DNA of 50,356 bases, taken from positions 1-50,356 of IMG/VR virus record IMGVR_UViG_3300027861_000043; one strand, given 5' to 3'. A program made the translations under genes and the position numbers. This document shows, one piece after another, positions 37,595 to 39,142 of the stretch. Numbering within the stretch: position 1 is the stretch's first letter; each line of letters begins with the position of its first letter. This DNA comes from a virus (Duplodnaviria; Caudoviricetes). The notes beneath the pieces are model-generated. The model searched no databases and was not told where the DNA came from. It saw only the letters and a program-made list of their open reading frames with translations.

Positions 37595-37605
37595 TTTCAC
37601 TCCTG

Positions 37606-37809
37606 TTATTTTGTGTTGGTGTATTTTTCACAATTACTCTCGCGCTCTTGCGACGACTCGAAAAAACCGTAAGACCAGTAGTCTTCAAATCCACAGGTCA
37701 AACATTTCGTTTTAGCCTCGCAAGCATGACCGTTAACAGTATCAACCAATTCAACATCGTTAGTCTCACCGCATCGGTTGCAAGACTCTAAAACGTGATA
37801 CTCAATCAT
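37606..37809 (-). CDS. small zinc-ribbon protein
   Basis: CNRC..CLTC; flanked by 17-bp RBS-containing direct repeats. Confidence 0.7.
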   Translation of the reverse strand: MIEYHVLESCNRCGETNDVELVDTVNGHACEAKTKCLTCGFEDYWSYGFFESSQERESNCEKYTNTK

Positions 37810-37833
37810 TATTCACCCCTGTTATTTTAAGAA

Positions 37834-38221
37834 GGTGTTCAGAGACAGGAGTTGAACCTGTAATCAAAGCCTTAATAGTCACCACAACCTAGATGGAGTC
37901 GAACCATATTTCTCTACCGCAGACTGAACATTAATTAGTGAGGTGGAGTTAGTAAAAGGCTCAATCATTAGCCGGATTTAAACCGATTCACTAACCTACC
38001 CACAGCAATTTTATATGCTGCGGTTATAACTCCACCTCTAAGGGAATCACACCCTCTATATTGGTTAATCTTTAAATGCGCCAACTGGCATTATCATCTC
38101 ATCGTCTTGGGAGTGACACCACATCATTATACTGTCCAATATAATGACAGTGTAAACACTGACTCGCTTATCGTTGGAGGGCAGCTAACCCCACCTCGGA
38201 ACTAAGTTCAACCGCCAACGA
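37834..38221 (-). ncRNA. structured leader/ncRNA cluster with tRNA T-loop-like hairpins
   Basis: no long ORF; closed domains 37836-37930, 37940-38038, 38171-38221; six GG-T-N6-CC hairpins; begins ~6 nt after a -10 box. Confidence 0.65.
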
Positions 38222-38226
38222 AATTA

Positions 38227-38254
38227 ATCATACACTAAATAAAAATAATTTCAA
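38227..38254 (-). promoter_or_regulatory. leftward sigma70-like promoter
   Basis: TTGAAA-N16-TATGAT on minus strand. Confidence 0.6.
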
Positions 38255-38261
38255 ATATTAT

Positions 38262-38289
38262 TTTACATTCTTTGAAAATCATGTATGAT
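38262..38289 (+). promoter_or_regulatory. rightward sigma70-like promoter
   Basis: TTTACA-N16-TATGAT. Confidence 0.6.
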
Positions 38290-38338
38290 GCACACTCTCA
38301 CAACGAGAAACTAAACAATCCAATATGAGGAAAACATT

Positions 38339-39142
38339 ATGGAATTAGGAATACTAGAACGGATAGAAGCCAAGTTAGATAAATTGCTTGGTGCTGAATC
38401 TGCCCCTGCTGAAGCCGGTCGATGGAAAACCGACAGAGTAGAAGTTGCTGCCCCAGAATTAACACCCACTGTTGAAGTACAACCAGAATTACCAGTAGAG
38501 GAATCGAAAGGCTCTGGAATGCTCGATGACGGTGGTTATGAGTGGGATGAGCGCATTCATTCATCTAACAAGAAGAAGACTGCTAAGGGTATCTGGACAA
38601 GACGGAGAGGTATAGATGACTCATTGTATAACCAAGTGATTGCGGAGCAGACAATTAACCCACCAGAAGGTTCGGAAGAAGCAGACATTAATGCTCTGGA
38701 TGTTCCAGAAGCACCATCGGTTCCAACACCTCCTGCTCCACCTTCACCATCGGTTCCAACACCTCCTGCGGTAAAACCTGAAGACGAACTTAAGAAAAAA
38801 GTTATGGCTTCAATTGCAAACTTAACAACGCGCTTTGGTGTAGATTTTGACAAGGTGATTGCTCAACTTCCTGACAACGTAAAAAGCTTTGATGCACTTG
38901 ACTCAAGTAAGTATCAAGAAGTGAGTGTTGCAATGGAAGCTTGGGAAGGATGGTTAGATTTGTGTCAAGATGAAAATGTGACTATTCAAACAATCGGTGG
39001 TCAAGCAGGTATTGACGGAATGATTAGTATTTATAATCACTACAATAACTCAACGAACTTCAACCAGATTGACCCTTCTGAATTAAACAATGTTCATGAT
39101 TGTTTAATGGATTATCGTAAGAAGTGGGAAGCGGTTAAGTAA
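38339..39142 (+). CDS. acidic replication-operon protein with WDERIHS..K....G.W..RRG motif and Pro-rich linker
   Basis: GAGG RBS; motif seen by eye; carries the terL-derived 39-bp segment. Confidence 0.8.
   Translation: MELGILERIEAKLDKLLGAESAPAEAGRWKTDRVEVAAPELTPTVEVQPELPVEESKGSGMLDDGGYEWDERIHSSNKKKTAKGIWTRRRGIDDSLYNQVIAEQTINPPEGSEEADINALDVPEAPSVPTPPAPPSPSVPTPPAVKPEDELKKKVMASIANLTTRFGVDFDKVIAQLPDNVKSFDALDSSKYQEVSVAMEAWEGWLDLCQDENVTIQTIGGQAGIDGMISIYNHYNNSTNFNQIDPSELNNVHDCLMDYRKKWEAVK
38406..38444 (+). repeat. 39-bp exact direct repeat, copy 2 (copy 1 in terL)
   Basis: identical to 1025-1063; bracketed by CTGCCCC at 38400-38406 and 38448-38454. Confidence 0.95.

What the first reader, a model, noticed from the sequence alone, without database searches (positions are those of the whole stretch)
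37834..38221. Array of tRNA T-loop-like hairpins forming a multi-domain RNA ahead of the helicase-polymerase operon
Seen on the minus strand, starting ~6 nt after a -10 box: six GG-T-N6-CC hairpins with 7-nt loops: TTAGCTG (38179-38191), TGTCACT (38110-38120, weak stem), TGTGATT (38041-38055), TTTAAAT (37973-37985), TTCGACT (37893-37907), TTCAACT (37845-37861). The last two are canonical T-loops. They sit in closed domains: TCGTTGG/CCAACGA (38171-38221), a 12-bp stem (37940-38038) and TGTTCAG/CTGAACA (37836-37930), which ends ...ACACC like an acceptor end but holds two T-arms and no recognisable anticodon arm. Known: T-loops are recognised by RNase P/Z and pair up in T-box and RNase P RNAs to bind tRNA elbows; phages P4 and P1 use processed tRNA-like RNAs (CI, C4) to control transcription. 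Inference: an undescribed tRNA-mimic RNA cassette acting as a regulatory leader or as decoys against tRNA-targeting defences.
Basis: partly seen in the sequence, partly recalled or inferred. Interest (0 to 1): 0.82.

Follow-up and report, generated by a model that had tools for sequence, protein, structure and literature searches.

The report
tRNA-like modules in phage leader
A marine phage carries, between a conserved early promoter and its replication genes, a 390-base insert built from tRNA-like pieces that are not tRNAs, one of which belongs to a group of odd tRNA-like genes seen in other phages; what it does is still open.

Summary
Six GGT-N6-CC hairpin motifs lie on the minus strand within 343 nt, against 69 on both strands of the 50-kb window. 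Five fit the T-loop signature GGTNNNANTCC, and the window's only two exact GGTTCRANTCC sites lie 47 nt apart here. ARAGORN, Rfam and direct tRNA and tmRNA model searches find nothing, so these are not tRNA genes or mildly decayed copies.

The block is the 5' leader of the leftward replication operon (Zn-ribbon ORF, helicase, DNA polymerase). It starts about 6 nt after the -10 box of a divergent promoter whose 40-nt core is identical in two relatives. None of 9 related phages has the block; their leaders are 40-350 nt.

Domain 3 (37836-37929) is a diverged member of a tRNA-like family found in other phages, several inside tRNA clusters. The family has an acceptor stem, an internal 4-bp hairpin with a UUCGANU loop, a TAGG.T.TGGT box, a T-arm and an A discriminator. 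A model built without the window scores domain 3 at 37 bits.

Domain 2 is exceptionally stable (z -6.9). The other hairpins are not supported by folding. Best reading: a laterally acquired, remodelled cassette of tRNA-like genes, now an RNA leader and probably cut by tRNA-processing enzymes. Any decoy or regulatory role is untested.

The parts
38227..38254 (-). Leftward promoter-like site, TTGAAA-16-TATGAT. The predicted transcript start is near 38220.
   Evidence: It lies inside a 40-nt block (38230-38269) that is identical in the window, L002 and L128 and recognisable in Vibrio phages L145 and L146.
38171..38221 (-). Domain 1: a 51-nt element closed by the 7-bp stem TCGTTGG/CCAACGA. It holds hairpin 1 (GGG-UUAGCUG-CCC, 38191-38179), which directly abuts the 3' strand of the closing stem.
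   Evidence: I9. Folding is not better than shuffles (z -1.20).
38186..38197 (-). 12-mer copy a, GAGGTGGGGTTA. It is complementary to copy c.
   Evidence: (D4, I5). The a:c pairs reach probability 0.92-0.94 over the first 7 pairs in the full-leader ensemble.
38110..38120 (-). Hairpin 2 motif GGTGTCACTCC. The loop UGUCACU has the U1-A5 signature; the stem is only 2 bp.
   Evidence: Pair probability 0.00.
38076..38091 (-). D-arm-like hairpin ATGC-CAGTTGGC-GCAT: a 4-bp stem and an 8-nt loop containing AGTTGG. It ends 19 nt upstream of hairpin 3.
   Evidence: Read. The likeness to a D-arm rests on recalled tRNA consensus and was not tested statistically.
38040..38056 (-). Hairpin 3: GAGGG-UGUGAUU-CCCUU, 5 pairs including one G-U.
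   Evidence: Pair probability 0.07.
37940..38038 (-). Domain 2: a Y-shaped element. Its perfect 12-bp closing stem joins copy b (38038-38027) to copy c (37951-37940). Inside are an 8-bp hairpin (38023-38000) and a long hairpin that competes with hairpin 4.
   Evidence: -43.1 kcal/mol, z -6.93 as minus-strand RNA, against -35.4 kcal/mol, z -5.08 for the plus strand. Several pairs are G-U only on the minus strand. (I4).
37972..37986 (-). Hairpin 4: UCGG-UUUAAAU-CCGG. The T-loop consensus is kept except for C56 changed to U.
   Evidence: It is not part of the minimum-energy fold of domain 2.
37836..37930 (-). Domain 3: an anticodon-less tRNA-like element.
- Acceptor strand GUUCAG (37929-37924) pairs with CUGAAC (37842-37837), or 7 bp as TGTTCAG/CTGAACA.
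- D-like hairpin at 37923-37911.
- Internal T-like hairpin, box and T-arm (listed separately).
- 1-2 extra nt before the 3' acceptor strand.
- A37836 sits in the discriminator position and is followed by CC.
   Evidence: Model R1, built without the window, matches 37929-37836 end to end at 37 bits, E 4e-8 (rough); the next hit in the window scores 13.4 bits. Alignment. No hit by ARAGORN or RF00005.
37893..37907 (-).
   Evidence: The 4-bp stem covaries across relatives: AU/UA here, CG/CG in L150, UA/UA in the L032 type, UA/CG in the L026 type.
37877..37891 (-). Box TAGGTTGTGGTGACT.
   Evidence: It matches L150 and L155 (TAGGTTGTGGTAACT) at 14 of 15 positions, nine of which the search pattern had fixed. 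The L032 type reads TAGGATATGGT.
37845..37861 (-).
   Evidence: Together with the 3' strand it matches tRNA-like genes of L063 at 24 of 27 positions with a 1-nt gap.
37606..37809 (-). First gene of the operon: a 67-aa zinc-ribbon protein, with its Shine-Dalgarno sequence AGGGGUGA at 37820-37813. It is not part of the insert.
   Evidence: phrog_2993. Homologous first genes in Vibrio phages L148 and L141; homologues P0001 and P0002.

Best explanation
The 390-nt block (38221-37834, minus strand) is a lineage-specific insert between a deeply conserved early promoter and the first gene of the leftward replication operon. It is made of sequence derived from tRNA-like genes, not of tRNA genes.

Its 3' module (domain 3) is a diverged copy of a phage tRNA-like RNA type that lacks a normal anticodon arm. 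The module has an acceptor stem, an internal 4-bp T-loop-like hairpin, a conserved box, a true T-arm, A in the discriminator position and CC. The upstream part holds four more T-loop-like hairpins at tRNA-gene spacing and one very stable Y-shaped domain.

Shown: the anatomy, the statistics, absence from relatives, kinship of domain 3, and no match to known RNA families.

Inferred:
- The block was acquired laterally from a phage cluster of tRNA and tRNA-like genes and then remodelled.
- It is transcribed as the 5' leader.
- Its acceptor/T-arm modules, domain 3 above all, are recognised by host tRNA-maturation enzymes: RNase P 5' of G37929 and a 3' endonuclease after A37836. That would release about 95-nt tRNA-like RNA(s) and leave the operon mRNA starting about 25 nt before the ORF67 start codon.

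Whether the released RNAs act further, as decoys or regulators, is open.
For: Statistics of the tRNA signature:
- 5 of the window's 12 GGTNNNANTCC sites and both of its GGTTCRANTCC sites lie here on one strand.
- Spacings of 67-79 nt resemble a tRNA gene period.

Not canonical tRNA:
- ARAGORN finds 0 genes.
- Rfam finds 0 matches at gathering score and only 3 chance-level hits of 15-16 bits at E<=10.
- RF00005 and RF00023 give 0 matches at E<=10 in the whole record, while the controls ring in 14 of 14 genomes.

Leader position: the promoter site ends at 38227, there is no ORF of 40 aa or more inside the block, and the operon genes follow.

Insert: the 40-nt promoter core is identical in L002 and L128, but their leaders diverge right after the -10 box. 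0 of 9 relatives have the array.

Kinship of domain 3:
- A pattern taken from its interior found 14 viral loci, forming two types.
- Outside the two T-loop motifs, domain 3 is more like the L032, L020 and L026 elements than shuffled controls are (z 3.6, 3.3, 3.1).
- Model R1, built from 9 relatives without the window, scores domain 3 at 37 bits. Matches at ARAGORN-called tRNA genes in 10 control loci score at most about 30 bits (L064 30.6; L104 29.5).
- The internal hairpin stem covaries.
- L150, L026 and others sit inside ARAGORN-called tRNA clusters.

RNA-level structure on the transcribed strand: domain 2 has z -6.93 and relies on G-U pairs that exist only on the minus strand.

Both acceptor-like stems abut a T-like hairpin, as in tRNA. 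My hand estimate of the chance of each is about 0.01.

RNase P is reported to cut non-tRNA substrates, including phage C4 RNA and mRNAs (PMC11143913, passages read).
Against: - No relative carries the block, so no covariation exists for domains 1 and 2 or hairpins 1-4. Conservation under selection is not shown.
- The kinship evidence is partly circular. The relatives were retrieved with patterns taken from the window, so the R1 E-value overstates independence.
- Domain 3 departs from its relatives at the junction that RNase P and other tRNA enzymes read. There are 1-2 extra nt between the T-stem and the acceptor strand, and a U-U mismatch at the innermost acceptor pair (alignment).
- The tRNA-like fold of domain 3 (-14.6 to -16.6 kcal/mol) is 4-6 kcal/mol worse than its minimum-energy fold.
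- Hairpins 2-6 have low pair probabilities in the leader ensemble.
- Hairpins 1-4 have non-canonical loops.
- No tRNA-processing, repair or Ro60 gene was found in the phage (30 proteins scanned, not every ORF).
Confidence: 0.45

Rival explanations
1. Neutral relic. The block is a decaying remnant of a laterally acquired tRNA / tRNA-like gene cluster. It is merely tolerated in the leader and has no present RNA function.
For: - It is absent from 0 of 9... that is, none of the 9 relatives has it.
- No unit reaches even E<=10 with the tRNA model.
- Hairpins 1-4 have degenerate loops and weak stems.
- Domain 3 has an irregular acceptor/T junction and, compared with L150, lacks the segment between the D-arm and the internal hairpin.
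- Domains 1 and 3 fold no better than shuffles.
- The spacing resembles tandem tRNA genes.
Against: - Random decay should erode all features alike. Yet 5 of 6 loops keep GGT...A.TCC, and two perfect 7-bp acceptor-like stems still abut T-like hairpins, while the anticodon arms are wholly gone.
- A perfect 12-bp stem, three exact 12-mer copies and z -6.9 for domain 2 are not what a decayed tRNA looks like.
- 390 nt of junk inside the leader of an essential operon is unusual for a 50-kb phage whose relatives have leaders of 40-350 nt.
Confidence: 0.3
2. Cis-acting riboregulator. The leader switches between two folds: local domains (b:c stem, domain 3 closed) and a long-range helix (38212-38186 with 37951-37922) that opens domains 2 and 3. 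The switch would set expression of the operon. The T-loops would serve as tertiary-contact or protein-binding modules, not as tRNA mimics.
For: - The three exact copies of GAGGTGGRGTTA in the window are all here: two direct and one inverted.
- In the ensemble the a:c helix has probability 0.92-0.94 against 0.06 for b:c, although b:c is the nearer and perfect partner.
- The complementarity extends to UUGAAC:GUUCAG, the 5' acceptor strand of domain 3 (minimum-energy fold).
- The relatives L002 and L128 carry a different leader device at the same place, a hairpin plus an intrinsic terminator. So leader-level control of this operon is plausible.
Against: - No terminator follows the switch. Only one weak terminator-like site exists, at 38161-38148.
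- The predicted sequestration of the ORF67 Shine-Dalgarno sequence by the T-arm (probability 0.99) is not special. 53 of 300 dinucleotide shuffles of the upstream 108 nt do the same at 0.9 or more.
- No ligand or factor is indicated, and no comparative support exists.
Confidence: 0.13
3. DNA-level element. The repeats and palindromes are protein-binding sites, such as a replication origin or operators in the middle of the replication module, and the T-loop likeness is incidental.
For: - The block lies between divergent replication operons next to a conserved bidirectional promoter.
- There are three 12-mer copies and AT-rich inverted repeats.
- The plus strand also folds better than shuffles (z -4.16).
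Against: - Two exact 11-nt T-arm consensus sites and kinship of domain 3 with tRNA-like genes are hard to explain as binding sites.
- All six motifs share the orientation of transcription.
- Domain 2 is better as minus-strand RNA because of G-U pairs.
- Relatives replicate without the block.
Confidence: 0.07

Closest known systems
Canonical tRNA genes and phage tRNA clusters (Rfam tRNA model)
   Same: T-arm consensus GGTTCRANTCC twice; acceptor-like 7-bp stems abutting T-like hairpins; A then CC after the 3' strand of domain 3; unit spacing of 67-79 nt; relatives of domain 3 lie in tRNA clusters.
   Different: No cloverleaf: no anticodon arm, an irregular acceptor/T junction, and no hit by ARAGORN or RF00005 even at E<=10.
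Irregular or allo-tRNA-like polycistrons from metagenomes and metatranscriptomes (review PMC7609411; passages read)
   Same: Tandem, non-canonical tRNA-like units with extra or missing loops. These could not be aminoacylated by E. coli enzymes, and their function is unknown.
   Different: Those units are described with 8/4 or 9/4 acceptor/T geometry and an anticodon arm. Here the anticodon arm is missing and an internal T-loop-like hairpin is present. No sequence comparison was possible.
tRNA-like domain of tmRNA
   Same: Acceptor stem plus T-arm without an anticodon arm.
   Different: No tag reading frame and no pseudoknots. ARAGORN and RF00023 find nothing. Two T-like hairpins sit inside one acceptor stem.
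Bacterial and phage YrlA (Y RNA-like) tRNA mimics (PMC4201824; passages read)
   Same: A non-coding RNA with T- and D-arm-like hairpins and no anticodon function. YrlA is a substrate of tRNA enzymes, including RNase P and CCA addition.
   Different: YrlA lies next to a Ro60 (TROVE) gene and has a Ro-binding stem. No TROVE gene is in this phage and there is no Rfam hit.
P1/P7 C4 and P4 CI leader-derived RNAs
   Same: Small RNAs cut out of the leader of the operon they control. C4 is an RNase P substrate (PMC11143913), and CI/seqA are antisense regulators (PMC3632133). As I recall the P4 literature, P4 has repeated complementary boxes in a leader upstream of replication genes.
   Different: No Rfam match to any family in this region. 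Here the order of the boxes is direct, direct, inverted. No integrase or immunity genes turned up among the proteins scanned. These RNAs are not known to me to carry T-loops.
tRNA gene fragments left by integrative elements (PMC9897764; search listing and abstract start only)
   Same: Partial tRNA-like sequences with T-arm and acceptor parts that annotation tools misjudge.
   Different: Such fragments are 3' ends of host tRNAs at att sites. Here no integrase was seen, and no exact match of the double T-arm was found in 185,579 species genomes. The 5' acceptor strand is also present.

Membership tests
tRNA (RF00005 / ARAGORN) | Cloverleaf with D-arm, anticodon arm, T-arm and a 7-bp acceptor stem, scoring above the model threshold | tested here: not met
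   ARAGORN finds 0 genes in the window. RF00005 gives 0 matches at E<=10 with 4 candidates scored; the control rings in 14 of 14 genomes. No tRNA hit at E<=10 in 37600-38500.
tRNA (RF00005 / ARAGORN) | T-arm with the GGTTCRANTCC consensus | tested here: met
   Two exact sites, at 37905-37895 and 37858-37848.
tRNA (RF00005 / ARAGORN) | Acceptor 3' strand directly follows the T-stem | tested here: not met
   1-2 extra nt (CU, 37844-37843) lie between CCUGU and the acceptor strand.
tmRNA (RF00023 / ARAGORN) | tRNA-like domain plus tag reading frame and pseudoknots | tested here: not met
   ARAGORN finds none. RF00023 gives 0 matches at E<=10.
T-box leader, P1 C4 / P4 CI, IsrK, GOLLD, ROOL and all other Rfam 15 families | Match to the family covariance model | tested here: not met
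   0 matches at gathering score over the window. At E<=10 over 37600-38500 there are only three hits of 15-16 bits, to two snoRNA families and one lncRNA family.
YrlA / bacterial Y RNA | Encoded beside a Ro60 (TROVE) gene | tested here: not met
   PF05731 gives 0 matches at E<=1 in the whole record.
Phage tRNA-like RNAs with an internal T-like hairpin (defined here; model R1) | End-to-end match to a model built from 9 members without the window | tested here: met
   37 bits, model positions 1-91, at 37929-37836; the next hit in the window scores 13.4 bits. Matches at ARAGORN-called tRNA genes in 10 control loci score at most about 30 bits. Caveat: the members were found with patterns taken from the window.
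Phage tRNA-like RNAs with an internal T-like hairpin (defined here; model R1) | Internal 4-bp hairpin with a UUCGANU loop and a mismatched fifth pair | tested here: met
   Window: U-C mismatch, then AU, UA, GC, GC. Same layout in L150, and in the L032 and L026 types, with compensatory changes in pairs 2 and 3. L020 keeps only three pairs.
Phage tRNA-like RNAs with an internal T-like hairpin (defined here; model R1) | Canonical 7-bp acceptor stem flush with the T-stem, and location in a tRNA cluster | tested here: not met
   The window has 6 pairs plus an insertion and no tRNA gene anywhere in the genome. The members have flush 7-bp stems, and L150 and L026 lie among tRNAs.
RNase P / tRNA-processing substrate | Cleavage at the 5' end of the acceptor stem; Psi55 and m5U54 in the T-loops | not testable with these tools
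   Needs in vitro cleavage or RNA from infected cells.

The most novel reading that the evidence does not exclude
The leader is a polycistron of anticodon-less tRNA mimics (acceptor/T-arm modules). The host tRNA-maturation machinery excises them early in infection, and they act in trans. They could be decoys for immunity nucleases or transferases that attack tRNA acceptor ends or elbows, or sponges for T-arm-binding enzymes. Domain 3 would represent an undescribed, widespread family of phage tRNA-like RNAs with an internal T-loop hairpin.
Probability: 0.15. Interest if true: 0.8.

Novelty: new variant of a known kind. Interest (0 to 1): 0.55.

Why it matters
Phage tRNA genes are usually read as codon-usage or anti-defence supplements. 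This case is different: tRNA-like modules that cannot decode are placed in the leader of a replication operon of a phage with no tRNA genes. One of them is related to a conserved, unannotated type of tRNA-like gene in other phages.

If the modules are processed and active, they would add a class of phage RNAs that use the tRNA-maturation pathway for something other than translation. They would also be a concrete test case for tRNA-mimic decoys against tRNA-targeting immunity. If the block is a relic, it documents lateral capture of tRNA-cluster sequence into a regulatory region.

Tried and rejected
- **Expression data.** The look-up of sequencing runs listed one DNA run, possibly the source sample. 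No RNA holder is listed.
- **Homologues of the whole block.** blastn against 50,697 phage records found no match. The domain 2 pattern found 0 hits in viral contigs. The exact double T-arm pattern found 0 hits in species genomes.
- **Link to ORF67.** The five viral loci with ORF67 homologues have no T-like array upstream. ORF67-like first genes occur in relatives without the block. So the ORF is not part of a mobile cassette with the array, as I first thought. No ORF67 relative was found in species genomes.
- **"Two T-arms in one acceptor stem" as a general class.** 35 of 116 distinct double-T sites in viral contigs are enclosed by a 7-bp stem, against 11, 6, 5, 1 and 4 in decoy searches. The set is mixed, though. 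ARAGORN reads some as type II tRNA-Ser(CGA), with the first 'T-arm' as the anticodon arm (L018, L064). Only the subfamily found is clearly related to the window.
- **Reading hairpin 5 as a CGA anticodon arm.** Possible in form, but the loop has C at position 37, the stem has 4 bp, and L150 has a separate CGA-containing hairpin upstream. Left open.
- **Shine-Dalgarno masking by the T-arm.** Predicted but not above the shuffle background: 53 of 300 shuffles. Rejected as evidence.
- **Recent tandem duplication of the units.** Pairwise unit alignments give z of 3.6 or less, and the best pair overlaps itself. Rejected.
- **Small ORFs in the block.** The 38-aa and 32-aa frames, and the 29-aa and 20-aa frames I read by eye, have no support.
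- **Literature.** Six searches found no description of phage tRNA-like RNAs with an internal T-loop hairpin or of T-loop arrays in phage leaders. Paper supplements are closed. The 10,006 candidate viral RNAs of PMC10690425 are listed there and may include the domain 3 family.
Full report
**Context.** The window is a complete 50,356-bp virus record. It encodes a lambda-type terminase and portal and a capsid protein, and a replication module arranged as two divergent operons.
- Leftward (minus strand): a 67-aa zinc-ribbon ORF (37809-37606, phrog_2993), a 68-aa ORF, an SF2 helicase (37394-35727), a 146-aa protein and a DNA polymerase (35292-33274).
- Rightward: a 267-aa protein that related records annotate as RecT-like, a DUF2800 exonuclease, an Enc34-type ssDNA-binding protein, an endonuclease and a D5-type primase.

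The helicase is 40-50% identical to those of siphophages of Pseudoalteromonas, Shewanella, Vibrio and Aeromonas. The finding lies in the 529-bp gap between the two operons (37810-38338).

**The observation.** The clustering is far beyond chance.
- GGTNNNNNNCC occurs 69 times on both strands of the window, six of them on the minus strand between 37848 and 38190.
- The tighter T-loop signature GGTNNNANTCC occurs 12 times (3.9 expected; 0 of 100 shuffles reach 12), five of them here.
- The full T-arm consensus GGTTCRANTCC occurs twice in the window, both here and 47 nt apart (0.11 expected).
- Start-to-start spacings are 70, 67, 69, 79 and 47 nt. The first four resemble the period of tandem tRNA genes.
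- A sigma-70-like promoter (TTGAAA-16-TATGAT) ends at 38227, 5 nt before the first closing stem. Its divergent twin lies at 38262-38289.

**What it is not.**
- ARAGORN finds no tRNA or tmRNA in the window.
- Rfam 15 gives no match at gathering score. At E<=10 over 37600-38500 it gives only three 15-16-bit hits to snoRNA and lncRNA families.
- The tRNA and tmRNA models searched directly against the record give nothing at E<=10, while the same searches ring in 14 of 14 control genomes.
- There is no Ro60/TROVE gene.

So the block is neither a set of tRNA genes nor a set of lightly damaged ones, and it belongs to no curated RNA family.

**Folding.**
- As RNA, the whole 396-nt block folds somewhat better than shuffles on both strands: z -2.76 on the minus strand and -4.16 on the plus strand.
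- By domain, only domain 2 (37938-38040) stands out: -43.1 kcal/mol, z -6.93, 0 of 200 shuffles as good. It is better as minus-strand RNA than as plus-strand RNA (-35.4 kcal/mol, z -5.08), because several pairs are G-U only on the minus strand.
- Domain 1 (z -1.20), the stretch 38040-38170 (z -0.91) and domain 3 (z +0.46) are unremarkable.
- In the ensemble of the full leader, the T-like hairpins have pair probabilities of 0.00-0.11, with hairpin 1 at 0.65.
- The tRNA-like fold of domain 3 costs 4-6 kcal/mol relative to its minimum-energy fold.

Nearest-neighbour energies often fail to recover tRNA folds (general knowledge).

**A repeat system.**
- The 12-mer GAGGTGGRGTTA has exactly three perfect copies in the window, all in this block. 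Copies a (38197-38186) and b (38038-38027) are direct. Copy c (37951-37940) is inverted.
- b:c is the perfect closing stem of domain 2. Even so, the full-length ensemble prefers a:c (0.92-0.94 against 0.06).
- The a:c helix extends over 38212-38186 and 37951-37922, and takes in the 5' acceptor strand of domain 3 (fold).
- Two mutually exclusive global folds are therefore possible.
- The T-arm of domain 3 is also predicted to mask the ORF67 Shine-Dalgarno sequence. This is not above background: 53 of 300 shuffled upstream sequences mask it equally well.

**Relatives lack the block.**
- Two uncultured relatives, L002 and L128, have exonucleases 70% and 69% identical to the window's. They share a 40-nt promoter core (38230-38269) identical to the window's, but diverge from it right after the -10 box. 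Their leaders of about 110-130 nt carry a small conserved hairpin and an intrinsic terminator.
- Seven GenBank relatives have gaps of 40-347 bp with no array.
- In all, 0 of 9 relatives have the block.
- The zinc-ribbon first gene is not part of it. Similar first genes occur in Vibrio phage relatives, and five other phages with ORF67 homologues have no array upstream.
- The block is therefore a lineage-specific insert of about 390 nt between the transcription start and the first ribosome-binding site.

**Domain 3 has kin.**
- A scan of viral contigs for two T-arm motifs 26-46 nt apart gave more than 118 loci. Of 116 distinct sites, 35 are enclosed by a 7-bp stem placed as a tRNA acceptor stem, against 11, 6, 5, 1 and 4 in decoy searches.
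- That set is mixed. ARAGORN reads some as type II tRNA-Ser(CGA), taking the first hairpin as the anticodon arm.
- Outside the T-loop motifs, domain 3 resembles only one subset: L032, L020 and L026 (z 3.6, 3.3, 3.1).
- A pattern from its interior (GGTTCGACTCC, 2-5 nt, TAGGNTNTGGT) then found 14 viral loci. Twelve are L032-type genes of 90-91 nt, nearly identical across contigs of 7.6-271 kb. Two are a 110-nt L150 type.
- The L150 box TAGGTTGTGGTAACT matches the window's at 14 of 15 positions, nine of which the pattern had fixed.
- All share one layout: an acceptor stem, a 4-bp hairpin with a UUCGANU loop and a mismatched fifth pair, the box, a true T-arm, and A in the discriminator position. 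In most members the A is followed by C.
- The two outer pairs of the internal hairpin covary: AU/UA, CG/CG, UA/UA, UA/CG.
- L150 lies between tRNA-Phe and tRNA-Tyr genes, and L026 lies in a cluster of nine tRNA genes.
- Rfam recognises only the acceptor and T-arm of the L032 element (31.3 bits; the interior is skipped). It finds nothing at the L026, L088, L099, L120 or L020 elements.
- A covariance model built from nine members without the window matches 37929-37836 end to end at 37 bits (E about 4e-8, rough). The next hit in the window scores 13.4 bits.
- In ten control loci, matches at ARAGORN-called tRNA genes score at most about 30 bits. Higher scores fall at other tRNA-like genes, most of them carrying the L032/L026-type acceptor and T-arm.
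- The members were found with patterns drawn from the window, so the E-value overstates independence. The full-length register, the acceptor strand and the spacing were not in the patterns.
- The window's copy is aberrant. It has six acceptor pairs, then a U-U mismatch and an extra nucleotide before the T-stem. It also lacks the segment that L150 has between the D-arm and the internal hairpin.

**The upstream units.**
- Hairpins 2-4 keep the U1-A5 and UCC features of T-loops but not U55-C56.
- A D-arm-like hairpin (38091-38076, loop CAGTTGGC) ends 19 nt upstream of hairpin 3.
- Domain 1 is a 51-nt three-way junction whose 7-bp stem abuts hairpin 1.
- None resembles the domain 3 family or another unit.

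**Interpretation.** The best-supported reading is that a piece of a phage tRNA / tRNA-like gene cluster was captured between the promoter and the first gene, and was then remodelled.
- *Against a purely neutral relic:* T-loop signatures and flush, perfect acceptor-like stems survive selectively while the anticodon arms are gone entirely. Domain 2 is extremely stable and strand-specific. The 12-mer system is exact. And 390 nt is a large cost in the leader of an essential operon.
- *For a relic:* the block is absent from all relatives, the upstream hairpins are poor, and the junction in domain 3 is damaged.
- *My commitment:* with moderate confidence, the block is an expressed leader whose acceptor/T-arm modules are handled by tRNA-maturation enzymes. 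RNase P is known to cut tRNA-like and non-tRNA substrates, including phage C4 RNA and mRNAs (PMC11143913, passages read). Such cuts would release tRNA-like RNAs and trim the operon mRNA.
- A trans role as a decoy, or a cis role as a switch, remains possible and untested.

**Novelty.** tRNA-like elements, tRNA mimics and irregular tRNA-like polycistrons are known kinds (PMC7609411, PMC4201824; passages read). I found no description of a T-loop array in a phage operon leader, or of the domain 3 family, in Rfam or in six literature searches. Supplementary lists of candidate viral RNAs (PMC10690425) could not be read and may include the family.

Noticed in passing
window 38230-38269 (and 38290-38310): A 40-nt core of the divergent promoter region is 100% identical in the window, L002 and L128, although their proteins are only 48-70% identical. 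It is still recognisable in Vibrio phages L145 and L146. A nearby CTCG...CGAG inverted repeat is also conserved in L002, L125, L126 and L128. This is probably a shared operator/promoter unit of this phage group.
   Followed up: partly
L002 3774-3890 (minus strand); L128 3933-4060 (minus strand): In the two closest relatives, the leader of the same operon holds a small hairpin with a conserved loop. The stem changes CCCG/CGGG to CTTG/CAGG, one pair compensated and one turned to G-U. An intrinsic terminator follows just before the first gene. This suggests an attenuator, an antitermination site or a small RNA.
   Followed up: no
L026, L032, L038, L063, L083, L088 (coordinates): Large marine phage contigs carry many tRNA-like genes that share an almost identical acceptor stem and T-arm but have very different interiors. 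Some have a Leu-type D-arm and odd anticodons by ARAGORN; some have interiors of more than 100 nt. They look like one tRNA scaffold reused for many RNAs.
   Followed up: partly
L097 1655-1773; L098 10641-10756; L090 3081-3176: tRNA-like genes of 96-119 nt sit inside big tRNA clusters and end in an encoded ACCA. L097 has a D-arm, a tetraloop hairpin where the anticodon arm should be, an extra T-arm-like hairpin and two further hairpins. ARAGORN does not call them.
   Followed up: no
L120 1397-1489, 2622-3029, 4608-5023: One viral contig holds, within 4 kb, a tRNA-like element with two T-like hairpins, a GOLLD RNA (317 bits) and a tmRNA (57 bits).
   Followed up: no
L146 (MW824411.1) locus 1020-1219; L148 (PQ284950.1) locus 1025-1088: Stretches of two GenBank Vibrio phages annotated as intergenic contain CxxC...CxxC zinc-ribbon reading frames upstream of the helicase. 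The L148 gene matches ORF67 by blastn.
   Followed up: partly
window 37838-37818 and 37622-37602; 37970-37960, 37811-37801 and 32461-32451: The translation-initiation regions of ORF67 and the next ORF are 81% identical over 21 nt (ACACC..AAAATAACAGG). The 11-mer TAATGATTGAG, which spans the ORF67 start codon, recurs exactly inside domain 2 and once more at 32461-32451.
   Followed up: no
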